Source: Dehalococcoidia bacterium (lineage in GTDB: Bacteria > Chloroflexota > Dehalococcoidia > Lucifugimonadales > UBA3495). Taken from it: a stretch of DNA of 64,000 nt. Below, piece by piece: positions 2,130 through 35,830 of the stretch. Numbering within the stretch: the first letter of the stretch is position 1; each line of letters starts with the position of its first letter. The DNA lies in assembly GCA_965204865.1 (NCBI GenBank), contig OZ242027.1, forward strand, positions 3,011,986 through 3,075,985. The letters run 5' to 3'. The translations under genes and the position numbers were made by a program. The notes beneath the pieces were generated by a model that had not been told where the DNA came from, did no database searches, and was given only the letters and a program-made list of their open reading frames with translations.

Positions 2130-3194
2130 ATGCTAACGGAAACAGTGGCCGGCCGCACCTTCGATTACAGCCATAACGTGGGCCGCGGCGCGCAGACCGG
2201 CATGGGCTTCAACACCCCGGTGGCCCTGACCATCGGCCCCGACGGAGTGGTCTACGTCGCCAACCGCGGCAGCGAGTCCATCAGCAACGTGGGTTGGAAC
2301 CGCACCGGCGTTGGACAGCGCATCTCCAGGGTCACCCTCGGCGGCACCTGGGGCGAGGAAGAGTACCTGGGCGAGTTCAGCCGCTACGGCAACAACGACG
2401 GGCAGGTAATCTGGCCCGCCGGCATTGTTGCCGACAAGGACGGCAACCTCTATGTTGCCGACGAATGGCTCAACCGCATCTCGGTCTTCGACGCCGACGG
2501 CAACTACCAGCGCCACTTCTCCACCGTACCGGCCGACGACGCCGGGGAGAACGGAAGCTGCGGAATCGCCATCTCCACCGACGGTACTCTGTTCGTAACC
2601 GACGGGCGCAGCCATCAGGTCCGCAAGTTCACCACCGGCGGCGCATTCATCGGTTCCTTCGGCAGCAAGGGCTCCGGCGAGGGCGAGTTCGACTCCCCTT
2701 GGGGAATCACCATAGACAACAATGGCTATGTCTACGTGGCCGACTCCGGCAACCACCGGGTGCAGAAGCTGACCCAGGACGGGCAGTTCGTAGCCCAGTT
2801 CGGTCGCCCCGGCACCAAGCGCGGCGAAATCAACTACCCCTCCGACGTCGCTGTTGACCCCGAGGGCGATGTCTACGTCTGCGACTGGAGCGACAACCGC
2901 TGGGGCAAGGGTAGAGTCCACATCTTCGACGCCGACGGCAAGTTCCTGACCAGCCTGGTCGGCGACGCCCAGCAGCTCTCCGCCTGGGCGCAGATGACGG
3001 TGGACGCCAACGCCGACTACGCCAAGCGCCGCCGCGAGGTGCGCACTACCGAGCCGGAATGGACCTTCGCCCAGCCCACAGCCATCGAATACGACACCGA
3101 GAACAACAGGCTGATAGTGGTGGACACCCAGCGCAGCCGAATCCAGATCTACAACAAGCTCAGCCGCTACCTCATCCCTCAGCTCAACCTCTGA
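2130..3194 (+). CDS. NHL repeat-containing beta-propeller protein
   Basis: Repeated G-x-G-x-F-x-x-P-x-G-[IV]-x-[VI]-D-x-x-G-x-[VL]-Y-V-[AC]-D units (for example GEGEFDSPWGITIDNNGYVYVADSGNHRVQKL). RBS GGGAGG lies upstream. Confidence 0.8.
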   Translation: MLTETVAGRTFDYSHNVGRGAQTGMGFNTPVALTIGPDGVVYVANRGSESISNVGWNRTGVGQRISRVTLGGTWGEEEYLGEFSRYGNNDGQVIWPAGIVADKDGNLYVADEWLNRISVFDADGNYQRHFSTVPADDAGENGSCGIAISTDGTLFVTDGRSHQVRKFTTGGAFIGSFGSKGSGEGEFDSPWGITIDNNGYVYVADSGNHRVQKLTQDGQFVAQFGRPGTKRGEINYPSDVAVDPEGDVYVCDWSDNRWGKGRVHIFDADGKFLTSLVGDAQQLSAWAQMTVDANADYAKRRREVRTTEPEWTFAQPTAIEYDTENNRLIVVDTQRSRIQIYNKLSRYLIPQLNL

Positions 3195-9271: not shown

Positions 9272-9805
9272 TCAATCAGCGGGTTCGGACGGGTTCTCCA
9301 GGTCCAACATCGCCAGCAATCGCCCGTACCCGATGAACATTCCGGTAATCATCCCCAGCTCGAAAATCTCGGGATCGGTGAACTCCCGCCGCAGTTCCGC
9401 GAAGAACTCGTCGTCCACGTTCTGGTGATCGACGGACATACGCTCGGCGAAGCGGACGGCCAGCTTCTCCCTGTAGGGCAAATCGGTGTCCTCGAAGTGT
9501 ACGAGTGACGCCACCATTTCCTCGGTCATTCCCTGCTGCACCGCCGGCACAGCGCGACCCAGCTTTCAAGTGGCGCACTCGTTCAGCTCGGCAATCTTCA
9601 GCCGCACCAACTCCTTCAGCCGCGCGTCCAGCAGACCCTCCAGCTTCAGCGGCCCATAGAAGGCCCAGAACGCCTCATAGGCATCCGGCAGGTTGCCCGC
9701 CGCCTGGAATATCCGCGGGTTCAGCTTGTGCTCGGCTGCCGCCTTGGCGATTTTCTGCATTCCGGGCGTTAGCTGCTCGGTTGGCACCAGCTTAATCCGG
9801 GCCAT
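9272..9805 (-). CDS. carboxymuconolactone decarboxylase/AhpD-like protein, candidate selenoprotein (in-frame TGA at 9566..9568)
   Basis: ORFs 9566..9835 and 9272..9550 share one frame and are separated only by a TGA. The junction reads IAELNECAT-[TGA]-KLGRAVPAV, which is the family N-x-C-x-x-C motif with TGA on the second Cys. A hairpin follows about 20 nt downstream. Start ATG 9805 follows AAGGGG. Confidence 0.7.
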
Positions 9806-9899: not shown

Positions 9900-11324
9900 C
9901 TACACTACCGGGCGGTCGGCCACCGCCGGGTCCACCTTGCGGCGCTGGAACCTCCCATCGCCGAGGGTGCCGTGGAAATTGCCGTCCTCCACAACCACCT
10001 TGCCCCGCAGGATGGTCATTACCGGCCAGCCCTCGACCTCGGTGCCTTCCCAGATGCTGTAGTCGGAGATGTGGAAGTCGTCCATGGTCAGCGTCTTCTT
10101 GATGCCGGGGTCTATCACGCAGATGTCGGCGTCACTGCCCGGGGCCAGCACGCCCTTCTGGGGCCACAGGCCCATAATCCTGGCGGCGTTGGCCGAGGTT
10201 ACGTCCACAAACCGTTGCAGGGTCATTCCCTGTTTCGACACGCCTTCGCTGTACGTAATGCCCATGCGAGCTTCGGCGCCGTTGTGGCCGCCGGTAGTAT
10301 CGGAGATGGTTCTGCCGGAAATTTTCGTCTCCCACGACGTGCAGTATTCGTCGGTCGCCATGGTCTGTAGGCCGCCGTTTATGATGCCGTCCCATAGCAT
10401 CTTCCGGTCGTCTTCCGACTTCAACGAGGGATAGGTATGGTACTTCATACCGTTCTCTTCCTTGTAGTTCTCTTCGTTGAAGCAGCAGTAGTTGTGCAGC
10501 GTCTCGCCGTAAATCGGGCGGCCATTGCGGCGGGCCTCCATGATGTTTCGAACGCCCTGCTGGGCGCTGACATGAACGAAGTAGATCGGAGAGCCGGTCC
10601 ACTCGGCCACCCGCAGCGTCCGCGTGAACGAGACATCCTCCGACTCCGCGCTGTGCACCTCCGACATATTGAACCACTCGGTGCGCTCTTCCCGCGTGAG
10701 CTTCTGATACATGTGCTGCACCATGTCGTCGTCCTCGGCGTGGACCAGCAGCATGGCGCTCAAGCGTTGAATCTCAGTCATCAGGTCGTGAAGATGGCCG
10801 GTGCCCACCATGCGGGGTTCGCCAGCGGTGGTGGGAGGGCGGATGTTGGTGGTGAATATCTTGACGCTGGCGAAGCCGTCCTCCACGAACTCGTGCAGGG
10901 AACCCAGGATGTTCTCGGGAATCTGCCCCAGCATCATCAGGTGGTGGGCGTAGTCGGAGTAAGAGTTCCCCTGCCATACCGCCGTGCGCTCTGCGATGGC
11001 CTGGGGAATGTCAATTCCAGGGTATTGGATGGCGAAGTCCATCAGGGTCGTAGTGCCGCCGAAGAGCGCGGCCCGGCTCACCTCCGGCGGGGGAGCGGTG
11101 GTAAGATTTCCGTGCCCCATGATGGGCGCGGAAATATGGGCATGGGGTTCGATGCCCCCTGGCACGACCACCTTGCCCGAAGCGTCAATAATCCGCCCCG
11201 CTTCGTCCCCCAGCGCCCCGGCCGCAGCCACCGCCACGATTCGTTCGCCCTGCACCGCCACATCCCAATCCCCTACCCCCATGGGGGTAACGACCTGCCC
11301 GCCGCGGATAATCAAGTCCAGCAT
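9900..11324 (-). CDS. dihydropyrimidinase/D-hydantoinase-type cyclic amidohydrolase
   Basis: N-terminal DLIIRGGQVV...GGIEPHAHI metal-binding HxH motif. 474 aa. Confidence 0.85.
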   Translation of the reverse strand: MLDLIIRGGQVVTPMGVGDWDVAVQGERIVAVAAAGALGDEAGRIIDASGKVVVPGGIEPHAHISAPIMGHGNLTTAPPPEVSRAALFGGTTTLMDFAIQYPGIDIPQAIAERTAVWQGNSYSDYAHHLMMLGQIPENILGSLHEFVEDGFASVKIFTTNIRPPTTAGEPRMVGTGHLHDLMTEIQRLSAMLLVHAEDDDMVQHMYQKLTREERTEWFNMSEVHSAESEDVSFTRTLRVAEWTGSPIYFVHVSAQQGVRNIMEARRNGRPIYGETLHNYCCFNEENYKEENGMKYHTYPSLKSEDDRKMLWDGIINGGLQTMATDEYCTSWETKISGRTISDTTGGHNGAEARMGITYSEGVSKQGMTLQRFVDVTSANAARIMGLWPQKGVLAPGSDADICVIDPGIKKTLTMDDFHISDYSIWEGTEVEGWPVMTILRGKVVVEDGNFHGTLGDGRFQRRKVDPAVADRPVV

Positions 11325-28918: not shown

Positions 28919-30463
28919 CTACCCGCCCTTGATGATGTCCGACATCCGCTCGGCAATCATTATGGTGGTGCAGTTGGTGTTGGCGCGGATGCAGTCGGGC
29001 ATTACCGAGGCGTCAATGACACGCAGGTTTTCCAAGCCCTTGACCCGGCACTGTTGGTCAACGACGGCCATGGGGTCGCTGTCCGGCCCCATCTTGCAGG
29101 TGCCGGAGATGTGCTGCGAAGTGGTGACGTTGCGCATCAGCCAGTTGTCCAGCGCCTCGTCCGACTCCAGGTCGGAAGGCAGTGGCTCGAGCAGCCCCTT
29201 CACGATGTCGGCGTAGTCGGGGTGGTCGAGGAAGCCCACGCAGAGCCGCACGGCCTCGCGCATCCGGGCTAGGTCGCGGGGGTCGTCGGCGAAGTAGTTG
29301 TAGTTCAGCTCCGGCTGCACGTTGGGATCAGTAGACGTGATGGTCAGGTGGCCCTTGCCGTAGGCCAGCTCCAGGATGCAGGTGAAGCGGATGCCCTCGG
29401 CCTCCAGCGGGTCGCCGGAGATGGGCGACGAGAAGGACGACGCCATAATCTGGATGTCGTTGCGCAACTCGGAGCCAGTGGCGGTGTAGCGCAGCGCCAC
29501 CTGGGTGCGCGGGTCCTGCGGGTTCAGAGGGAAGTCCTCCTTAACCTCGATGGGCACGCGGATGTTGGGATGGTCGCGCAGGTTCTGGCCGATGCCGGGG
29601 GTGTCCTGCACCACCGGGATGCCGAACTTTTCCAGCGTGGCCGCCGGGCCGACCCCGGACAGCATCAGTATTTGCGGCGAGGCGATGGCCCCGGAGCAGA
29701 GGATGATTTCCTCGCCCTCGACGGTGAACCGCTCGCCGCCGCTCTCCACCTCGGCCCCAATGGCCTTTTTGCCGTCGAACAGCACGCGGTGAACGGTGAC
29801 GTTGGCCTTGACCGTCAGGTTCAGGCGGTGGCGGGCGGCGCCAAGGAAGGTCAGGGAGGTGCTCATCCGCACGCCGTTGGGGTTGTTCATCGGGATGGGG
29901 CCGACTCCGCCCGATTCAGGGTGATTCATGTCCGGGTCATCGGGGAATCCTGCGGTGCGGGCGGCGTTGTAGAACGCCTGCTGCGCCGGCAGCCAAGTCT
30001 CCCGCGCGAAGCGGCGCACCGGGATGAAGCCGTCGGAGTTATGAAAGTCGTCGGCCCCGAAGTCCATGTCGCTTTCCAGCTTGCGCAGGTAGGGCAGGAC
30101 GCTGGTGAAGCCCCACTGGTCGTTGCCCAGGGCGGCCCAGGCGTCGTAATCCTCGGGCACGCCGCGCAACAGCACCTGGCCGTTGATGGCGCTGGAGCCA
30201 CCCACCACCCGGCCCCGCGGCACCGGCATCGGCTCGGTCTGCAACGGCGTGGTGTTGCCCTGGAAGGACCAGTTGTGTGGCGCGTCAATGGCCGATGCGG
30301 TCTGGTCATAGCCAAACTTCAGGTCGTCGGGGTAGGTCTCGAAGTCCGGGTAGTCCGGCCCGGCCTCCAGCAGCAGGACGGACTTGGAGGGATCTTCCGA
30401 CAACCGGCTGGCCATAGTGCAGCCGGCGGAGCCTGCGCCGAGGATGATGTAGTCGTATTTCAT
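28919..30463 (-). CDS. GMC family oxidoreductase (choline dehydrogenase-like)
   Basis: MKYDYIILGAGSAGC FAD motif and GGSSAINGQV. 514 aa. Confidence 0.85.
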   Translation of the reverse strand: MKYDYIILGAGSAGCTMASRLSEDPSKSVLLLEAGPDYPDFETYPDDLKFGYDQTASAIDAPHNWSFQGNTTPLQTEPMPVPRGRVVGGSSAINGQVLLRGVPEDYDAWAALGNDQWGFTSVLPYLRKLESDMDFGADDFHNSDGFIPVRRFARETWLPAQQAFYNAARTAGFPDDPDMNHPESGGVGPIPMNNPNGVRMSTSLTFLGAARHRLNLTVKANVTVHRVLFDGKKAIGAEVESGGERFTVEGEEIILCSGAIASPQILMLSGVGPAATLEKFGIPVVQDTPGIGQNLRDHPNIRVPIEVKEDFPLNPQDPRTQVALRYTATGSELRNDIQIMASSFSSPISGDPLEAEGIRFTCILELAYGKGHLTITSTDPNVQPELNYNYFADDPRDLARMREAVRLCVGFLDHPDYADIVKGLLEPLPSDLESDEALDNWLMRNVTTSQHISGTCKMGPDSDPMAVVDQQCRVKGLENLRVIDASVMPDCIRANTNCTTIMIAERMSDIIKGG

Positions 30464-30525: not shown

Positions 30526-31236
30526 CTAACCCTTCAGGTGAGCGTTGAAGAACTCTATCGTCCGGGGCCAGGACGCTTCCGACGCTTCCTGCTGGTGGCG
30601 CAGCCCGGTGTAGTCCATGAAGGCGTGATCGGCCCCCGGATAGGTGTGGAATTCATGCGCCACACCCAATCGGCCTAGCTCGGCGTCCAGCTTGTCCCGG
30701 TCCTCGAGGGACGGGTTCTCGTCTATTTCGCCAAAGTGGAACAGCACCGGGCACTGGATGCCGGAGGCCAGCTCGAAGGGCGTCTGCTCCCCGGCGCCCC
30801 AGGTGACGAAGATGTTGCCACCGTAGTAGGGGGCGCAGGCGCGGATGTGGCGGTTGGTGGCCGCGCCCAGCCAGGCGACCCGCCCGCCCATGCAGAAGCC
30901 AGTGATGCCGATGCGCTCGCCCTGAATGGCCGGATGGGCCCGCAGCCAGTCCACCGTGGCCCCGATGTCCGCCACTATATCCGGGTCGCTCATGTGCTGG
31001 ATGCGGCCGGTGCGATTGTCCAGTTGCTCCTCGGTGAAACGGTGGAACAGGTTGGGCGCGACGGCGGCAAACCCGGCCTCGGCCAGCTTGTCGGCCATGT
31101 CGCGGATGAACTGGTCCACGCCGCCGCCGTGCTGGCTGACGATGACCGCCGGGAACGGGCCGCCCCCGCTGGGCACGCTGGCGTAGACGTGCATATCGAG
31201 TCCGCCCACGGGTATTGTTTCCCAGAATGAAGCCAT
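30526..31236 (-). CDS. dienelactone hydrolase family protein
   Basis: Nucleophile elbow GITGFCMGG and the C-terminal YPGADHAF motif. Confidence 0.8.
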   Translation of the reverse strand: MASFWETIPVGGLDMHVYASVPSGGGPFPAVIVSQHGGGVDQFIRDMADKLAEAGFAAVAPNLFHRFTEEQLDNRTGRIQHMSDPDIVADIGATVDWLRAHPAIQGERIGITGFCMGGRVAWLGAATNRHIRACAPYYGGNIFVTWGAGEQTPFELASGIQCPVLFHFGEIDENPSLEDRDKLDAELGRLGVAHEFHTYPGADHAFMDYTGLRHQQEASEASWPRTIEFFNAHLKG

Positions 31237-31435
31237 CTCTTCCCTCCGTCAGATGGTATAGCTAATCTGGCGCATTATCTCCCAGCTACGAGATTACGCT
31301 GTCTGTGATGATGTGCTATCCGCGCATTTGCGACAGATTATAGCCCAGCAGAGCGTTGTCAACAAAACGCAGCATCTGCCGTTTCACGCTCTCACGTGGT
31401 AGGATACCGCCAACACTCGAATGGAGGTAAGCGGT

Positions 31436-32203
31436 ATGGCCATGGACGTTCAGGTCTATACCCAGCCTGGTTGATTCAGTTGCCGGACTCTGGAAGAGTT
31501 CCTAAAGTCCAACGGCGTTCCTTACGAACATCACGACCTGCTCAGCGAACCCGCCGCGGTGGAGCATCTGCGCAGCCGGGGCATCAAGTCGCTGCCAGTC
31601 ACCATCATTGATGACACCGAGATCATCATCGGCTATTACCCCAAGAAGCTGATACCGGCTCTGAAGCTGGACGTGTCCGTTGACCTGTCGGGCAAGACCG
31701 CGTGGCTGGCCGAGAAGTACGACGCCATAATGAGCGCGGCGGTACGGGCCAACAACCAGTTCAGCCAGGAACAACTCGACGCCATCGTGCCGTGGCGGCC
31801 TTGGAGTCTGCGTGACACGGTGGTTCACATCCTGGCCTTCCCGGAGATCGCCTACCTGTCCCACGAGGTGGGCAGCATGAGCTGGGACGATATGCAAGCC
31901 CAGGACAAGCGGCTGGAGGGCGTCACCACCGCGCCGCAGATTGCCGAGTACGGCCTACAGGTTCGGGACGACATCATCGCCTTCCTGGACAGCGGCAACA
32001 CCGAGGGCTTCGAGCGCGTGGTGCCGGCCCACTACGGCGGCGAGGTCACGGTGCTAGAACTGCTCAACATCGTGCTGAGCCACAGCACCCACCACCTCAA
32101 GCAGGTCTACCACTACATGACCACTGACCTGGGCATGACCCCGGACAACCCGGCCACCGACGCCGACCTGGAAGGCATCCAGACGCCGGACGCGCTGATT
32201 TAG
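31436..32203 (+). CDS. glutaredoxin-like / DinB-like fusion protein, candidate selenoprotein (in-frame TGA at 31472..31474)
   Basis: The frame of ORF 31559..32203 is open back to ATG 31436 (GGAGGT 7 nt upstream) except for one TGA. The N-terminus MAMDVQVYTQPG-[TGA]-FSCRTLEEFLKSNGVPYEHHDL matches the NrdH/Grx CxxC region. The C-terminal HSTHHLKQV is DinB-like. A hairpin lies 17 nt after the TGA. Confidence 0.7.
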
Positions 32204-32254
32204 GCTTAACCGCAGAGAACGCAGAGGGCAAGGAGCATTTGGGGAGGTAAAGCG

Positions 32255-32452
32255 ATGGCAAAAGTCGGCAAGGAGGTTCTGGTAGCGGTTCAGGACGCTT
32301 TGGAACAGTACGAGCAAGAGGTTCAAGATGCCGAGGAATCCGGCTTTTTAACGGAGCAGACCAAGAAAACTTACCTGCTCCACGCCAAGCACTTCGTCCG
32401 CTGGCTCGACGACGACTTCGAACCCGGCGGACGGGGAAAAAACAACAGATAA
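32255..32452 (+). CDS. small hypothetical protein
   Basis: 65-aa lower-GC ORF bracketed by inverted CRCAGAG-type repeats. RBS GGGGAGG lies upstream. Confidence 0.35.
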   Translation: MAKVGKEVLVAVQDALEQYEQEVQDAEESGFLTEQTKKTYLLHAKHFVRWLDDDFEPGGRGKNNR

Positions 32453-32510
32453 TAATCTCCGTGTTCTCTGTGCGCTCTGTGTTGAATCCGTCTCCTGTAA
32501 GGAGGGAAAT

Positions 32511-34058
32511 ATGAAGTATGACTACATCGTGATTGGCGCCGGTTCCGCCGGCTCAATCATCGCCACGCGGCTGACCGAGGACCCCAATGTCTCGGTGCTG
32601 CTGCTGGAGGCTGGGCCGGACTACCCCGACTTCGAGCGGCTGCCCGAAGAGGTCAAGTTCGGCTACTCCACCGAAATAGACATCATGGTCAGCGACCATA
32701 ACTGGCAGTTCATCGGCAAGGCGACGGAGAGCGCCCCGCCGATGATGGTGCCGCGCGGCAAGGTCACCGGCGGCTCCAGCGCCATCAACGGCCAAGTGTT
32801 CCTGCGCGGCGTGCCCGAGGACTACGATTCCTGGGCGGAGATGGGCAACGACGAGTGGAAGTACACCGACTGCCTGCCCTACTTCCGTAAGCTGGAGACC
32901 GACAGCGACTTCTCCGACGACTTCCACGGCACCGACGGCCCCATCGTGTGCCACCGATTCAAGCCGGAGACTTGGCACCCGGCGCAGACGGCCTTCTACC
33001 AAGCCTGCCGCGAGGCCGGGTTCCCGGACAGCCCAGACCACAACAACCCGGAATCTACCGGCGTCGGCCCCACGCCCTTCAACAACCCCGGCGGCGTACG
33101 CATGAGCACCGCCCTGGGCTATCTGGATCAGACGCGCCATCGTCTCAACCTAACCATCCGAGCCAATTGCCACGTGCAGAAGATTCTGTTCGAGGGCAAC
33201 CGGGCCGTCGGCGCGTGGGTAGAGAGCGGGGGCGAGGTCTTTACCGTCGAGGGCAACGAGATAATCCTCAGCTCCGGCGCCATCGGCTCGCCGCATATCC
33301 TCCTGCTGTCGGGCGTCGGCCCGGCGGCGCACCTGCAAGAGCATGGCATCCCGGTGGTGGCCGACCTGCCCGGCGTGGGCCAGAATATGCGCGATCATCC
33401 CTTGGTCTGGGTGACCTGGCGCACCAGGCCGGAGGTGCCGCTGGACGGCCTGGCTCCCCGGATGCAGGTGACGCTGCGCTACACCGCCGACGGCTCGCCC
33501 CTGCGCAACGACATGAAGATGTCCATGCAGTCCTTCGCCACCGAGCGCATCAATCGGGGCGGCGACCGGATGGAGCCGGTGGGCATCCGCCTGACCAGCG
33601 GCATCCAGCTCGCGGCGGGCGCGGGCGAACTGCGGCTCAACTCTGCCGACCCTTCGCAGCAGCCATTCCTCGACTACCGCTACTTGGAAGACCCCTTCGA
33701 CCTGGAGCGGCTGCGGGAGACGGTGCGCCTCTGCGTCAAGCTGGGCGAGAGCGACGCCTTCAAGGACATCATCCAGGAGCGCATCGAACCCACCGACGAC
33801 GAACTGGCGACGGACGAGGCCTTGGACGAGTACCTGTTCCGCGAGGTGACCACCTCGCAGCACATATCCTGCACCGCCAAGATGGGATCGGCCGACGACC
33901 CCATGGCCGTGGTCAGCCAGTACGGCAAGGTGCACGGGCTGGAGGGCCTGCGGGTGGCCGACGCCTCCATAATGCCCGACTGCATCCGCGCCAACACCAA
34001 CGTGACCACGATGATGATCGGCGAGCGGGTGGCGGAGTTCATCAAGGCGGGGAAGTAG
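32511..34058 (+). CDS. GMC family oxidoreductase (paralog of 28919..30463)
   Basis: MKYDYIVIGAGSAGS FAD motif. Aligns along its full length with the other GMC gene. Confidence 0.85.
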   Translation: MKYDYIVIGAGSAGSIIATRLTEDPNVSVLLLEAGPDYPDFERLPEEVKFGYSTEIDIMVSDHNWQFIGKATESAPPMMVPRGKVTGGSSAINGQVFLRGVPEDYDSWAEMGNDEWKYTDCLPYFRKLETDSDFSDDFHGTDGPIVCHRFKPETWHPAQTAFYQACREAGFPDSPDHNNPESTGVGPTPFNNPGGVRMSTALGYLDQTRHRLNLTIRANCHVQKILFEGNRAVGAWVESGGEVFTVEGNEIILSSGAIGSPHILLLSGVGPAAHLQEHGIPVVADLPGVGQNMRDHPLVWVTWRTRPEVPLDGLAPRMQVTLRYTADGSPLRNDMKMSMQSFATERINRGGDRMEPVGIRLTSGIQLAAGAGELRLNSADPSQQPFLDYRYLEDPFDLERLRETVRLCVKLGESDAFKDIIQERIEPTDDELATDEALDEYLFREVTTSQHISCTAKMGSADDPMAVVSQYGKVHGLEGLRVADASIMPDCIRANTNVTTMMIGERVAEFIKAGK

Positions 34059-34327: not shown

Positions 34328-34879
34328 TCAGGTTCGTGGCGTCATCAGCCAGTCCTGGCTCTTGGCATCCTCGCTCATCCACTGGGAGTAGGATTCCTGG
34401 CGGCCCGCAGGCGGCTCCACGCCGAGGCTGTCGGCGAGGCGGGTCATGAAGTTGAAGTTGCAGGTTATCAGTACGGTGGACAGTATCTGCTCATCGCTGA
34501 GTCCGTGGTTTCGCAGCCGCTGCACGTCGGACTGGGTCATGGCGGCGGGCGTGCGCGTCAGCTTGGCGGCGAAGTCCAACATCGCGCGGGTCTGAGGGTC
34601 GAGTTCGGCTTGGGTGTAGTCGTGCATCATATGGCTGGCCAGTTCCGGGTTGTCCGAATGGTCACGGAGGAACCCCCCGTGAGCCATGGTTCAATAGCGG
34701 CAGTGGTTGGTGGCCGAAACCACAGTGGCAATGGCTTCCTCCTGCACCCTGGTCAGGGCGGATGCGCCGAAGGTGACCGCCATGTTCAGCCGCTGCACAG
34801 CCTCCATCGCCTGGGGCTGAATCGACATTATCTTGATGACTTCCGGCAGATTGACTTCTTCTTCACGAATCCAGGCCAT
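34328..34879 (-). CDS. AhpD-family peroxidase-related protein, candidate selenoprotein (in-frame TGA at 34691..34693)
   Basis: ORFs 34691..34879 and 34328..34687 share one frame. The junction is VSATNHCRY-[TGA]-TMAHGGFL, which is the N-x-C-x-Y-C-x-x-x-H motif with TGA on the second Cys. A hairpin begins 5 nt after the TGA. AGGAG lies 7 nt before ATG 34879. Confidence 0.7.
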
Positions 34880-34954: not shown

Positions 34955-35830
34955 CTACGCCCGCCCGAACCAGTCGGGGTGCACCGCCTGCAACCCCAGT
35001 TGCGGCCACGCTGCCGGGGCGCTGCACTTCTCCAGCCGTTCATCGAGGGGCAGCGAGTCGTCCCAGTAGTAAGCGATGATGCGGCGGCCGTTCCAGTGGC
35101 TGGCGTCGTCTGAGGCTATCCAGACCGCCGGCGACTGCATCGCCTCGGGCTGGATTAGCGCATCAGTGGACGCGCCTTCGGGCGGTATCACCATGTTGGT
35201 GGCGGTGGCCCCGCCGGGGGTAAGCACGTTGGCGGTGACGCCGGTGCCTTCAAGGTCCTGGGCCATGATGGCCACCAGCGCTTCGTGCCCCGCCTTGGAC
35301 GGGCCGTAGGGCGCGCCGCCCTTGCGCCACATGGTGTCCATGCTGGTGGTCACGCCGATGATGCGCCCGAATCCCTGCTCGATCATGTGAGGCGCGACGG
35401 CGTGGGACATCAGGAACGGGCCGCTGAGGTTGACGCTGATAACTCGCAGCCAGGCATCGGCGGGCAAGGTCCAGAAGTCGTTCTGGCTTCCGGCGGCCCG
35501 CGCTCCGAACCCTCCGGTGCGGGCGTTAATGCCGGCGTTGTTGACCAGTATATGCAGCCCGCCCATTTCGTTGATGGTGCGCTGCACTGCGCTCTCCACC
35601 GACTCCGGGTCGGTGACGTCGGCTACAATGGGCAGTACTGCGTCATCGCCGCCTATCTCGCGCATATCGTTGGCGGACTGGTCCAGCCAGTCCTCATTGA
35701 CGTCCAGCATCGCCACTCTTGCCCCGGCACGCACCAGACCGGTAGTGATGGAGCGGCCCATGCCGATGGGGCTGGCTGCCCCGGTGACGATGGCGATTCT
35801 GCCTTCCAGCGTGTTGGATTGGGTGGTCAT
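34955..35830 (-). CDS. SDR family oxidoreductase
   Basis: IAIVTGAASPIGMG Rossmann motif, NNAG, and catalytic YxxxK (YGPSK). Confidence 0.85.
   Translation of the reverse strand: MTTQSNTLEGRIAIVTGAASPIGMGRSITTGLVRAGARVAMLDVNEDWLDQSANDMREIGGDDAVLPIVADVTDPESVESAVQRTINEMGGLHILVNNAGINARTGGFGARAAGSQNDFWTLPADAWLRVISVNLSGPFLMSHAVAPHMIEQGFGRIIGVTTSMDTMWRKGGAPYGPSKAGHEALVAIMAQDLEGTGVTANVLTPGGATATNMVIPPEGASTDALIQPEAMQSPAVWIASDDASHWNGRRIIAYYWDDSLPLDERLEKCSAPAAWPQLGLQAVHPDWFGRA

What the first reader, a model, noticed from the sequence alone, without database searches (positions are those of the whole stretch)
31436..32203. Candidate selenocysteine (U-x-x-C) glutaredoxin-like domain fused to a DinB-like domain
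The ORF track reports only 31559..32203. The same frame is open back to ATG 31436 (GGAGGT 7 nt upstream) apart from a single TGA at 31472..31474. Read through, the N-terminus is MAMDVQVYTQPG-[TGA]-FSCRTLEEFLKSNGVPYEHHDLLSEPAAVEHLRSRGIKSLPVTIIDDTEIIIGYYPKKL. This is collinear with NrdH/glutaredoxin folds (I-x-I-Y-T-x-x-x-C-x-x-C ... G-x-x-[FY]-E ... LPVV). The TGA falls on the first Cys of the CxxC redox motif. Seventeen nt after the TGA the mRNA can fold as GGACUC-UGGAA-GAGU(U)CC (31485..31502), with GG in the apical loop. That is the geometry expected of a bacterial SECIS. The C-terminal half (HSTHHLKQV, histidine triad spacing) is DinB-like, a superfamily that includes thiol S-transferases. 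A Sec-glutaredoxin module fused to it is functionally coherent, and I do not recognise it as a described selenoprotein architecture. TGA is an ordinary stop elsewhere in the window (for example 3192..3194), so this is site-specific recoding rather than an alternative genetic code.
Basis: partly seen in the sequence, partly recalled or inferred. Interest (0 to 1): 0.85.

Follow-up and report, generated by a model that had tools for sequence, protein, structure and literature searches.

The report
Selenocysteine glutaredoxin–DinB fusion enzyme gene
This is a real gene in which a "stop" codon almost certainly encodes the rare amino acid selenocysteine, at the active site of a small redox domain fused to a metal-binding DinB domain; databases record it only as a truncated DinB protein, and this domain combination is absent from the selenoprotein catalogues I could read.

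Summary
ATG 31436 to TAG 32203 is one 255-codon frame broken only by TGA 31472-31474.

- **Domains:** with U read as C, Pfam finds Glutaredoxin (residues 5-61) and DinB_2 (residues 108-224).
- **TGA conservation:** the codon is invariant in 81/81 orthologous loci from 80 Dehalococcoidia/SAR202-type species (63-96% protein identity). It is also present in three remote homologs (27-41%).
- **Coding on both sides:** conservation is codon-periodic on both sides of the TGA and stops at the start Met.
- **Cys homologs:** distant full-length Grx-DinB fusions carry PG-C-SSC at this column.
- **Sec use in this genome:** the window holds two more CxxU AhpD/CMD-like selenoprotein genes with canonical SECIS hairpins. 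TGA also ends ordinary genes here.
- **SECIS:** A longer stem-loop (31482-31516, G-first triloop 21 nt after UGA) is, with thin covariation support.
- **Gene partner:** the gene is paired with a downstream GMC oxidoreductase in at least 55/80 loci.

Verdict: a genuine selenoprotein, a new domain-fusion variant of Sec-glutaredoxins. Biochemical function is inferred only, and the Sec machinery genes were not seen in the window. Interest is moderate.

The parts
31423..31428 (+). Shine-Dalgarno-like GGAGGT, 7 nt before the start codon
   Evidence: Read directly from the sequence.
31436..32203 (+). Complete selenoprotein ORF: 255 codons, Sec at codon 13, stop TAG 32201-32203.
   Evidence: tblastn matches to residues 1-255 in 80 loci. 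Codon-periodic conservation starts at the Met. ATG 31442 (Met3) is an alternative start that aligns with the Met of distant orthologs.
31472..31474 (+). In-frame UGA read as selenocysteine (U13). It is the first position of the U-F-S-C redox motif.
   Evidence: TGA in 81/81 orthologous loci and in remote homologs L083-L085. Cys occupies this column in distant Grx-DinB fusions.
31481..31483 (+). TGC encoding Cys16, the resolving Cys of the UxxC motif
   Evidence: FSC is conserved in all 81 loci. It aligns with the second Cys of CSSC in the Cys forms.
31482..31516 (+). Candidate bacterial SECIS stem-loop. Lower helix 31482-84/31514-16. Middle helix 31485-89/31506-10. Upper helix 31492-95/31499-502. 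Apical triloop GAG at 31496-98, 21 nt after the UGA.
   Evidence: It is the MFE fold of the window sequence at -12.7 kcal/mol. 94.5% of cells are paired across 68 distinct sequences, and pair 18:35 switches between U-A and G-C. It meets the published bSECIS constraints (PMC13188914). Remote homologs L084 and L085 have a 7-bp stem with a GUU triloop at the homologous codons. Caveats: the z-score against shuffles is only -1.1, and the compensatory pair amounts to about one double event.
31448..31618 (+). Glutaredoxin-like (NrdH/YruB-type) thioredoxin-fold domain, residues 5-61 by Pfam. The fold extends to about residue 77.
   Evidence: PF00462 E 4.5e-10. PDB profile hits: 7c10 cGrx1 at 9.5e-22, plus NrdH entries. 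Foldseek TMt 0.89-0.94 to 7c10, 7c12 and 3zit. AF2 strands and helices as expected for the fold.
31754..32143 (+). DinB/YfiT-type four-helix-bundle domain, residues about 107-236. Putative metal-binding His triad: H131 (31826-28), H216 (32081-83), H220 (32093-95).
   Evidence: PF12867 E 3.4e-10 and PF05163 E 5.5e-7. H131, H216 and H220 are nearly invariant across Sec and Cys forms. Foldseek hits to 2p1a, 6iz2, 1rxq (YfiT) and 8f5v (mycothiol S-transferase), TMt 0.64-0.81.
32511..34058 (+). Downstream GMC-family FAD oxidoreductase, the conserved gene partner
   Evidence: PF00732 and PF05199. An ortholog (74-96% identity) lies 34-350 nt downstream on the same strand in at least 55 of 80 loci.
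34328..34879 (-). Neighbouring AhpD-like selenoprotein gene (NHC-RY-U-TMAH; TGA at 34693-34691). It is independent evidence that this genome decodes UGA as Sec.
   Evidence: The CMD domain spans the TGA. TIGR01926 scores 127.9 bits against a cutoff of 81.8. The TGA is conserved in 12 loci. It has a canonical SECIS: 9-bp stem, GUU triloop, 17 nt after the UGA.

Best explanation
Window 31436-32203 (+) is one gene for a 255-residue selenoprotein.

**Decoding (inferred).** UGA 31472-74 is decoded as selenocysteine by SelB and tRNA-Sec. A stem-loop that starts 8 nt after the UGA (31482-31516) directs this; its G-first apical triloop lies 21 nt downstream of the codon.

**Protein (shown by profile and model).** Sec13 and Cys16 form a U-F-S-C redox centre at the start of helix 1 of an N-terminal NrdH/YruB-type glutaredoxin fold. 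This domain is fused to a C-terminal DinB/YfiT four-helix bundle that keeps the metal-binding His triad (H131, H216, H220).

**Chemistry (inferred).** The DinB domain would act like its characterised relatives, the bacillithiol and mycothiol S-transferases, as a metal-dependent thiol-chemistry site. The tethered selenol/thiol pair would supply or recycle the nucleophile through a selenenylsulfide. The enzyme would then reduce or conjugate an electrophilic or oxidised product linked to the co-transcribed GMC flavoprotein oxidoreductase.

**Shown:** the conserved UGA, coding selection on both sides of it, Cys homologs at the same column, the two domains, the conserved stem-loop potential, other Sec genes in the same window, and the GMC gene pairing.

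**Inferred:** actual Sec insertion, SelB binding, metal binding, substrate and chemistry.
For: - **TGA conservation:** TGA is present in 81/81 loci from 80 species at 63-96% protein identity. The peptide M-x-V-[QH]-V-Y-T-x-P-G-U-F-S-C-R-T is conserved, and conservation ends at the Met.
- **Coding on both sides:** codon-position entropies are [0.24, 0.09, 1.03] before the TGA and [0.45, 0.32, 1.03] after it. The upstream non-coding stretch gives about 1.7 at all three positions.
- **Remote homologs:** homologs at 27-41% identity also have TGA at this column.
- **Cys homologs:** Cys-type full-length fusions read PG-C-SSC. BLASTP E is 4e-23 over residues 5-252.
- **Domains:** Pfam finds Grx plus DinB_2. 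The AF2 model of homolog P0102 (64% identical) has pLDDT 94.3 and pTM 0.88. Structural neighbours are found for each domain separately.
- **SECIS:** 94.5% of cells are paired, and pair 18:35 is GC in 38, UA in 27 and UG in 2 sequences. Energies are B -12.7 against A -5.3 kcal/mol in the window, and means of -9.0 against -1.0 across relatives. The structure fits the bSECIS model. Similar G-first triloop hairpins occur in two other window selenoprotein genes and in remote homologs.
- **Sec use in this genome:** the window holds two CxxU AhpD/CMD-like genes whose domains span a TGA.
- **Sec use in the lineage:** BSepDB ranks the genomes behind L065 (UBA1141) and L069 among the ten bacteria with the most selenoprotein genes.
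- **TGA as a stop:** TGA ends ordinary ORFs in the window.
- **Gene pair:** the GMC partner is conserved.
Against: - No selA, selB, selD or tRNA-Sec was found in the window or in the 1.6 Mb of related loci. None would be expected in so small a sample.
- The stem-loop is modest. Its upper stem is 4 bp, and the GAG loop lacks the commonest G[G/U] pattern.
- Its fold energy is not significantly better than shuffled sequence (z = -1.1).
- No Rfam hit was found.
- The one compensatory pair reflects roughly a single double substitution on the tree. It involves an amino-acid-changing position.
- Alternative registers exist for the upper helix.
- One homolog has CGA (Arg) at the column. It sits on a 2x-coverage contig with fragmented genes.
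- No protein-level or selenium-labelling data exist.
- The catalytic role is extrapolated from distant DinB relatives at 13-19% identity.
- I could not measure the distance between Sec13 and the His triad, because model coordinates are not exposed.
Confidence: 0.88

Rival explanations
1. The TGA is a true stop. The functional product is the DinB-only protein annotated in public databases, starting at GTG 31559 or another downstream codon. The 12 upstream codons would be a leader peptide or non-coding.
For: All public gene calls but a few give 214-237-aa DinB proteins. The mechanical ORF list shows only 31559-32203. The stem-loop is not statistically exceptional.
Against: - The downstream 'starts' differ between orthologs (MEEFL, MKSNG, MPYQ, MLSEP, VEHLR), so they are artefacts of the gene callers.
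- The stretch between the TGA and 31559 is under codon-periodic protein selection.
- That stretch encodes most of a glutaredoxin fold. The fold would lack strand beta-1 and its active-site residue if translation started after the TGA.
- A terminating stop would drift among TAA, TAG and TGA. Here it is TGA 84 times out of 84 in a lineage that prefers TAG.
- Cys homologs are full length.
Confidence: 0.03
2. The UGA is read through, but not as selenocysteine. It could be read by near-cognate suppression (Trp, Cys or Arg) or by a reassigned genetic code (code 4 or 25).
For: Some database entries show W at the column (P0102, P0136, P0172) and one shows R (P0090). The Sec machinery was not seen in the window.
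Against: - The W entries have TGA in their DNA, so they are code-4 mistranslations.
- TGA ends ordinary high-GC3 genes in this 63% GC window.
- The column is the catalytic first Cys of a CxxC motif, where Sec/Cys exchange is the classic selenoprotein signature (PMC13188914).
- Two other genes in the window have TGA at the CxxU position of AhpD-like families, which are known selenoproteins, with canonical SECIS hairpins.
- Related genomes are catalogued as Sec-rich.
Confidence: 0.04
3. The gene is a pseudogene, or the TGA is a sequencing or assembly error in an ordinary Cys-glutaredoxin-DinB gene.
For: A TGC/TGT to TGA change is a single substitution. One relative shows a different codon (CGA) on a low-coverage contig.
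Against: The same TGA is found in 80 independently assembled species genomes and several metagenome contigs. The rest of the ORF is intact and under purifying selection.
Confidence: 0.01

Closest known systems
Sec-containing glutaredoxin (Grx, PF00462, UxxC), e.g. Clostridium oremlandii Grx1 (Kim et al. 2011, cited in PMC13188914). Its Cys paralog cGrx1 is PDB 7c10.
   Same: - Small dithiol-type Grx fold with Sec as the first residue of the U-x-x-C motif at the start of helix 1.
- Recoding signal immediately downstream of the UGA.
- The Foldseek alignment of the P0102 model to 7c10 shows 41% identity and TMt 0.9 for the N-terminal domain.
   Different: - Here the Grx module is the N-terminal domain of a 255-residue two-domain protein with a DinB bundle.
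- The motif is U-F-S-C, not the C-P-H-C type.
- It scores below the NCBIfam cutoffs for YruB, NrdH and all Uxx-star families.
- It is found in aerobic marine and sponge-associated Dehalococcoidia and is paired with a GMC oxidoreductase.
DinB/YfiT-family thiol S-transferases: B. subtilis YfiT/BstA (1rxq) and M. tuberculosis mycothiol S-transferase (8f5v). Reviewed in PMC4360819.
   Same: Four-helix-bundle fold, with a conserved His plus H-x-x-x-H triad at equivalent positions. Pfam DinB_2 and DinB score above threshold.
   Different: - Only 13-19% identity.
- The MST equivalog model scores 18.8 against a cutoff of 170.
- The known enzymes are single-domain and use a diffusible low-molecular-weight thiol. 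This protein has a covalently fused Sec/Cys redox domain.
- No activity is known for it.
Cys-type glutaredoxin-DinB fusion proteins, annotated 'glutaredoxin' in IMG (e.g. P0199, P0181, P0244)
   Same: Same two-domain architecture end to end. They have CSSC where this protein has UFSC, and the same His triad.
   Different: - 22-28% identity.
- Cys instead of Sec.
- Different, proteobacterial-type gene neighbourhoods without the GMC partner.
- Uncharacterised.
AhpD-like and CMD-like CxxU selenoproteins (TIGR01926, PF02627), known marine selenoprotein families
   Same: They are encoded in the same window. They use the same recoding with G-first triloop SECIS hairpins 17-21 nt after the UGA.
   Different: Unrelated fold. 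The Sec is the second residue of the CxxU motif.

Membership tests
Bacterial selenoprotein gene (Sec-UGA recoding) | In-frame UGA conserved among orthologs, with protein-coding conservation on both sides | tested here: met
   TGA in 81/81 loci plus 3 remote homologs. Codon-periodic entropy on both sides of the TGA.
Bacterial selenoprotein gene (Sec-UGA recoding) | Cys-containing homologs with Cys aligned to the UGA column | tested here: met
   PG-C-SSC in at least 20 distant full-length fusions. BLASTP E 4e-23.
Bacterial selenoprotein gene (Sec-UGA recoding) | bSECIS stem-loop as defined in PMC13188914 Fig. 2: 3-9 nt loop, upper stem of at least 4 bp, G in the first two loop positions, 16-37 nt from the UGA, MFE of -7.5 kcal/mol or lower | tested here: met
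   GAG triloop, 4-bp upper stem plus 5-bp middle helix, 21-nt spacing, -12.7 kcal/mol (core -9.2). It is only a minimal fit, and it was not run through bSECISearch itself. Covariation support is thin.
Bacterial selenoprotein gene (Sec-UGA recoding) | selA, selB, selC (tRNA-Sec) and selD present in the same genome | not testable with these tools
   None were found in the 64-kb window or in the loci, and the whole genome is not available. Indirect support: two other selenoprotein genes in the window, and relatives L065 and L069 are listed as Sec-rich.
Bacterial selenoprotein gene (Sec-UGA recoding) | Selenium actually incorporated at the UGA position | not testable with these tools
   Needs 75Se labelling or mass spectrometry.
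Glutaredoxin (Pfam PF00462) | Profile match above the gathering score, with a C/UxxC motif after beta-1 and a conserved cis-Pro (LPV) | tested here: met
   40.0 bits against 22.9. U13-x-x-C16. P54 is invariant in alignment A2. Fold match to 7c10 and 3zit with TMt about 0.9.
NrdH (TIGR02194), YruB (TIGR02196) and Uxx-star (NF041212, NF041114, NF041211) glutaredoxin-like subfamilies | Score above the curated NCBIfam cutoff. For Uxx-star, also a Sec three residues before the C-terminus. | tested here: not met
   54.5 against 88.55, 47.9 against 85.75 and 35.5 against 66. The Sec is in the N-terminal CxxC position, and the domain is followed by 180 more residues.
DinB superfamily (Pfam DinB_2 PF12867, DinB PF05163) | Profile match above the gathering score, four-helix bundle, and a His triad (one His plus HxxxH) | tested here: met
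   40.9 against 24.8 and 30.1 against 23. H131, H216 and H220 are nearly invariant. Foldseek hits to 2p1a, 6iz2 and 1rxq with TMt 0.7-0.8.
Mycothiol/bacillithiol S-transferase (MST NF047843; YfiT/BstA) | Equivalog-level sequence match, and thiol S-transferase activity with a low-molecular-weight thiol | tested here: not met
   NF047843 scores 18.8 against a cutoff of 170. Activity cannot be tested here. The protein may work like these enzymes, but it is not a member.

The most novel reading that the evidence does not exclude
The fused Sec-glutaredoxin domain would replace the diffusible low-molecular-weight thiol (glutathione, mycothiol or bacillithiol) that all characterised DinB-fold transferases and isomerases need. 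The protein would then be a self-contained enzyme with a tethered selenolate. Its metal site would activate Sec13 to attack an electrophilic product of the co-transcribed GMC flavoprotein oxidoreductase, and Cys16 would resolve the adduct. This would be a lineage-wide, obligately selenium-dependent step in SAR202/Dehalococcoidia oxidative catabolism of recalcitrant organic matter.
Probability: 0.15. Interest if true: 0.75.

Novelty: new variant of a known kind. Interest (0 to 1): 0.5.

Why it matters
- **Annotation:** hundreds of database entries for this family are truncated 'DinB family proteins' that lack the catalytic residue and strand beta-1 of the Grx domain. A few carry W at the Sec position because the gene caller used genetic code 4. 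Correct models are needed for SAR202/Dehalococcoidia genomes.
- **A new architecture:** this adds a DinB-containing protein to the selenoproteome. DinB is not mentioned in the 2026 inventory of 119 selenoprotein families or in the other catalogues I could read.
- **Always Sec:** the close family is exclusively Sec. No Cys ortholog appears among 80 species, which points to a real catalytic need for selenium.
- **A testable link:** the conserved pairing with a GMC oxidoreductase offers an experimental handle connecting selenium, thiol chemistry and the oxidative metabolism for which SAR202 is known.
- **Limits:** UxxC Sec-glutaredoxin-like proteins are an established kind, and large pipelines may already count this gene under 'Grx'. 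The advance is therefore incremental rather than conceptual.

Tried and rejected
Pair 18:26 is broken in 38/68 sequences, there is no covariation, and the mean energy is -1.0 kcal/mol. Rejected as the conserved element.
- **A continuous 11-bp hairpin (positions 14-24 with 29-39).** It is the MFE fold in some distant sequences, but pair 23:30 is broken in 49/68. I kept only the shared 14-18/35-39 helix.
- **Rfam.** No hit at gathering thresholds on the whole window, and none at E up to 10 on 31380-31620.
- **tRNA-Sec.** ARAGORN found none in the window or the loci.
- **SelD.** This is uninformative for a 64-kb sample.
- **Structure prediction of my U-to-C edited sequence.** I used P0102 instead, which has a true TGA in its DNA rendered as W.
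- **Model coordinates.** They are not exposed, so I could not measure the Sec-to-His-triad distance.
- **A third read-through candidate at 24349-22925 (-).** The translation is low-complexity and not protein-like. I dropped it without a family search.
- **Literature.** Searches combining DinB with selenoprotein or selenocysteine found no relevant paper. The BSepDB supplement is not held, so I could not see how that database files this gene.
Full report
**1. Observation**

- GGAGGT lies at 31423-31428 and the ATG at 31436.
- A single in-frame TGA lies at 31472-31474. The frame then runs open to the stop at 32201-32203, which is TAG, not TAA.
- The mechanical ORF list holds only the 214-aa GTG ORF 31559-32203.
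- The read-through product is MAMDVQVYTQPG-U-FSCRTLEEFLKSNGV... With U replaced by C, it matches Pfam Glutaredoxin (residues 5-61, 40.0 bits, cutoff 22.9) and DinB_2 (residues 108-224, 40.9 bits, cutoff 24.8).
- No NCBIfam model reaches its cutoff. The best are YruB, NrdH and Uxx-star glutaredoxin-like models, all well below threshold.

**2. Is the TGA a conserved coding position?**

A search of 5.8 billion proteins gave 997 relatives.
- Nearly all are 214-237 aa and begin at different points just downstream of the TGA column: MEEFL..., MKSNG..., MPYQ..., MLSEP..., VEHLR.... This is the signature of gene callers stopping at an in-frame TGA.
- Only two calls were full length. One has W at the column, but its DNA reads TGA, so it is a code-4 mistranslation.
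- The other has R from a real CGA. It sits on a 2x-coverage long-read contig with visibly fragmented genes.

I then fetched the DNA of 80 orthologous loci, one per GTDB species. They are Dehalococcoidia, SAR202 or 'Chloroflexi' MAGs, plus one 'Ca. Entotheonella' record, at 63-96% protein identity.
- The codon at this column is TGA in 81 of 81 sequences, counting the window.
- The upstream peptide M-x-V-[QH]-V-Y-T-[QNH]-P-G is conserved, and conservation ends exactly at the Met.
- Per-codon-position entropies are [0.24, 0.09, 1.03] bits for the ten codons before the TGA.
- They are [0.45, 0.32, 1.03] between the TGA and GTG 31559, and [1.6, 1.8, 1.8] upstream of the Met. Both sides of the TGA are therefore under protein-level selection in this frame.
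- Three much more remote homologs (41, 29 and 27% identity) also have TGA at the same column: YYRPG-U-FSC, FYRVG-U-FTC and TTCA-U-FHS.

**3. Cys homologs**

An exhaustive HMMER scan of 1.84 billion representatives found distant full-length proteins of 245-276 aa at 22-28% identity.
- They match from residue about 3 to about 250.
- In the alignment they carry Y-W-Q-P-G-C-S-S-C, so Cys sits exactly at the U column and the second Cys is conserved.
- A pairwise BLASTP gives E = 4e-23 over residues 5-252, with QPGCFSC aligned to QPGCTSC.
- IMG names these proteins 'glutaredoxin'.
- This is the Sec/Cys pair criterion used to define selenoprotein families (PMC13188914).

**4. Does this organism use Sec, and is TGA otherwise a stop?**

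I scanned the window for TGAs with coding potential on both sides. Besides this gene, two candidates stood out.
- Candidate one is (-) 34879-34328, with NHC-RY-U-TMAH. Candidate two is (-) 9805-9272, with NEC-AT-U.
- Both are CMD/AhpD-family proteins whose domain spans the TGA, and both carry the classical CxxU motif.
- The first passes the TIGR01926 cutoff (127.9 against 81.8 bits). Its TGA is conserved in 12 related loci.
- AhpD-like and CMD-like CxxU proteins are listed selenoprotein families.
- Both have textbook bSECIS hairpins. One is a 9-bp stem with a GUU triloop 17 nt after the UGA. The other is a 14-bp stem with a GGC triloop 20 nt after it.

TGA also terminates high-GC3 ORFs in the window, for example 2130-3194. 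The recoding is therefore site-specific.

The Sec machinery itself is not in the window or in the 1.6 Mb of related loci. The literature offers indirect support:
- BSepDB ranks Dehalococcoidia bacterium UBA1141 (my L065) and isolate 10f4566d-... (my L069) among the ten bacteria with the most selenoprotein genes, 49 and 46 (PMC13326102).
- SelA and SelB were reported enriched in sponge-symbiont bins (PMC5649159).
- The window is about 88% identical at nucleotide level to L001 and L002. It is therefore a congener, not one of those genomes.

**5. SECIS**

Across 68 distinct orthologous sequences its pair 18:26 is broken in 38, and nothing covaries. Its mean energy is -1.0 kcal/mol.

The minimum-energy fold of the window sequence is a longer stem-loop at -12.7 kcal/mol.
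- Its parts are a lower helix 31482-84/31514-16, a middle helix 31485-89/31506-10, an upper helix 31492-95/31499-502, and a GAG triloop at 31496-98.
- It is kept in 94.5% of cells.
- Pair 18:35 switches between U-A (27), G-C (38) and U-G (2). Position 18 is a synonymous third position. Position 35 is a second codon position (K against S/T/A).
- It meets the published bSECIS constraints: 3-9 nt loop, upper stem of at least 4 bp, G in the first two loop positions, 16-37 nt spacing, and MFE of -7.5 kcal/mol or lower (PMC13188914).
- Remote homologs L084 and L085 have a 7-bp stem with a GUU triloop at the homologous K-E-F-L codons.

Caveats on the SECIS:
- The fold is not significantly more stable than shuffled sequence (z = -1.1).
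- The upper helix can slip register in some clades.
- On an NJ tree, the compensatory change amounts to about one double event.
- Rfam has no match.

I regard the SECIS as plausible and correctly placed, but not proven.

**6. The protein**

An AlphaFold2 model of the homolog P0102 (64% identical to the window protein) is confident, with pLDDT 94.3 and pTM 0.88. It was built on a 60-sequence family alignment.
- It shows a beta-alpha-beta-alpha-beta-beta-alpha thioredoxin-fold domain followed by a helical bundle.
- Foldseek and HMMER against the PDB find matches for each domain separately, and no solved protein contains both.
- The N-domain matches small dithiol glutaredoxins: C. oremlandii cGrx1 7c10 (41% identity, TMt about 0.9), BC3987 and NrdH.
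- The C-domain matches DinB/YfiT proteins: 2p1a, YizA 2qe9, DR0053 6iz2, YfiT 1rxq, and mycothiol S-transferase 8f5v with mycothiol and Zn2+.
- H131, H216 and H220 (HxxxH) are nearly invariant across Sec and Cys forms. This is the DinB metal triad.
- Characterised DinB-family enzymes are thiol S-transferases that use bacillithiol, mycothiol or glutathione (PMC4360819).

**7. Context**

The neighbours were identified by Pfam:

| Coordinates | Strand | Gene |
|---|---|---|
| 28919-30463 | - | GMC oxidoreductase |
| 30526-31236 | - | Dienelactone hydrolase |
| 31436-32203 | + | This gene |
| 32255-32452 | + | 65-aa ORF with no family |
| 32511-34058 | + | Second GMC oxidoreductase |
| 34328-34879 | - | AhpD-like selenoprotein |
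| 34955-35830 | - | Short-chain dehydrogenase (SDR) |

- An ortholog of the downstream GMC enzyme follows the Sec-Grx-DinB gene on the same strand, 34-350 nt away, in at least 55 of 80 loci. These include the most divergent loci.
- In four loci, a GMC gene lies immediately upstream instead.
- The Cys-type fusions sit in unrelated neighbourhoods without a GMC gene. Those neighbourhoods hold TctC, LysR and Omp85/TamB genes, suggesting proteobacterial hosts.

**8. Mechanism**

Shown: a conserved UGA at the first position of a UxxC centre, a suitably placed stem-loop, Sec usage in the same genome, two intact domains with catalytic residues, and a conserved GMC partner.

Inferred:
- SelB and tRNA-Sec insert Sec13.
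- Sec13 and Cys16 cycle through a selenenylsulfide.
- The DinB metal site performs thiol or selenol chemistry on an electrophilic or oxidised compound linked to the GMC flavoenzyme.

A bolder reading is that the tethered selenolate replaces the diffusible thiol cofactor that other DinB enzymes need. I give this about 15%.

**9. Novelty**

- UxxC Sec-glutaredoxins and 'Grx-like' marine selenoproteins are known (PMC2398784; PMC13188914).
- None of the catalogues I could read mentions a DinB domain. These are the 2008 GOS study, the 2022 and 2026 reviews (the latter covering 119 families), deep-Sep and BSepDB.
- No paper in the library links DinB with selenoproteins.
- No NCBIfam model covers this family.
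- Large pipelines may already count this gene as 'Grx', and I could not check that.

I class it as a new variant, a domain fusion, of a known kind. It is of moderate interest. Its main practical consequence is that a whole family is annotated in truncated form.

Noticed in passing
window 34328-34879 (-), TGA at 34693-34691: AhpD-like selenoprotein gene (NHC-RY-U-TMAH) missed by plain ORF calling. The CMD domain spans the TGA and TIGR01926 scores above its cutoff. The TGA is conserved in 12 related loci. It has a canonical SECIS: 9-bp stem, GUU triloop, 17 nt after the UGA.
   Followed up: yes
window 9272-9805 (-), TGA at 9568-9566: Second CMD/YciW-related candidate selenoprotein (NEC-AT-U). 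It has a 14-bp stem with a GGC triloop 20 nt after the UGA. It scores only below cutoff against NCBIfam NF053654, 'YciW-related (seleno)protein'. No orthologs lie within the fetched loci, so conservation of the TGA was not checked.
   Followed up: partly
whole window; loci L001-L080: Stop-codon usage is skewed to TAG. The window has 25 TAG, 9 TGA and 6 TAA among ORFs of at least 200 aa. The related loci have 300 TAG, 169 TAA and 136 TGA. This is unusual for a 63% GC genome, where TGA normally dominates. It may be related to heavy Sec-UGA use.
   Followed up: partly
window 28919-30463 (-) and 32511-34058 (+): Two paralogous GMC-family FAD oxidoreductases (about 60% identical) flank the locus. 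The downstream one is a conserved same-strand partner of the Sec-Grx-DinB gene in at least 55/80 species.
   Followed up: partly
window 32204-32510 (ORF 32255-32452): The spacer between the Sec-Grx-DinB gene and the GMC gene is 311 nt here, against 34-130 nt in most relatives. It holds a 65-aa ORF with no family hit. Weak relatives of that ORF appear only in L005 and L037.
   Followed up: no
L053 (CAZZSM010000001.1, 'Candidatus Entotheonella sp. DD2'), 10001-10762: A 66%-identical, TGA-containing copy of the gene sits in a record labelled as a Tectomicrobia sponge symbiont. This suggests either horizontal transfer among sponge symbionts or a binning or labelling problem.
   Followed up: no
L085, about 340-390 (upstream of gene 387-1121): A remote homolog has the motif T-T-C-A-U-F-H-S. 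The Sec is kept, the +3 resolving Cys is replaced by Ser, and a Cys lies two residues before the Sec (CxU). This may be a different redox-centre geometry within the family.
   Followed up: no
P0102/L082 723-1484; P0136; P0172; P0090/L081 3001-3762: Public protein collections contain 'full-length' versions with W at the Sec position. For P0102, the DNA reads TGA (code-4 mistranslation by the gene caller). P0136 and P0172 show the same W but their DNA was not read. There is also one CGA (Arg) variant, on a 2x-coverage contig with fragmented neighbouring genes.
   Followed up: partly
JADFPM01 MAG: L042 and L054: The same MAG (Chloroflexota B73T1L10) carries two TGA-containing paralogs of the gene on different contigs.
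   Followed up: no
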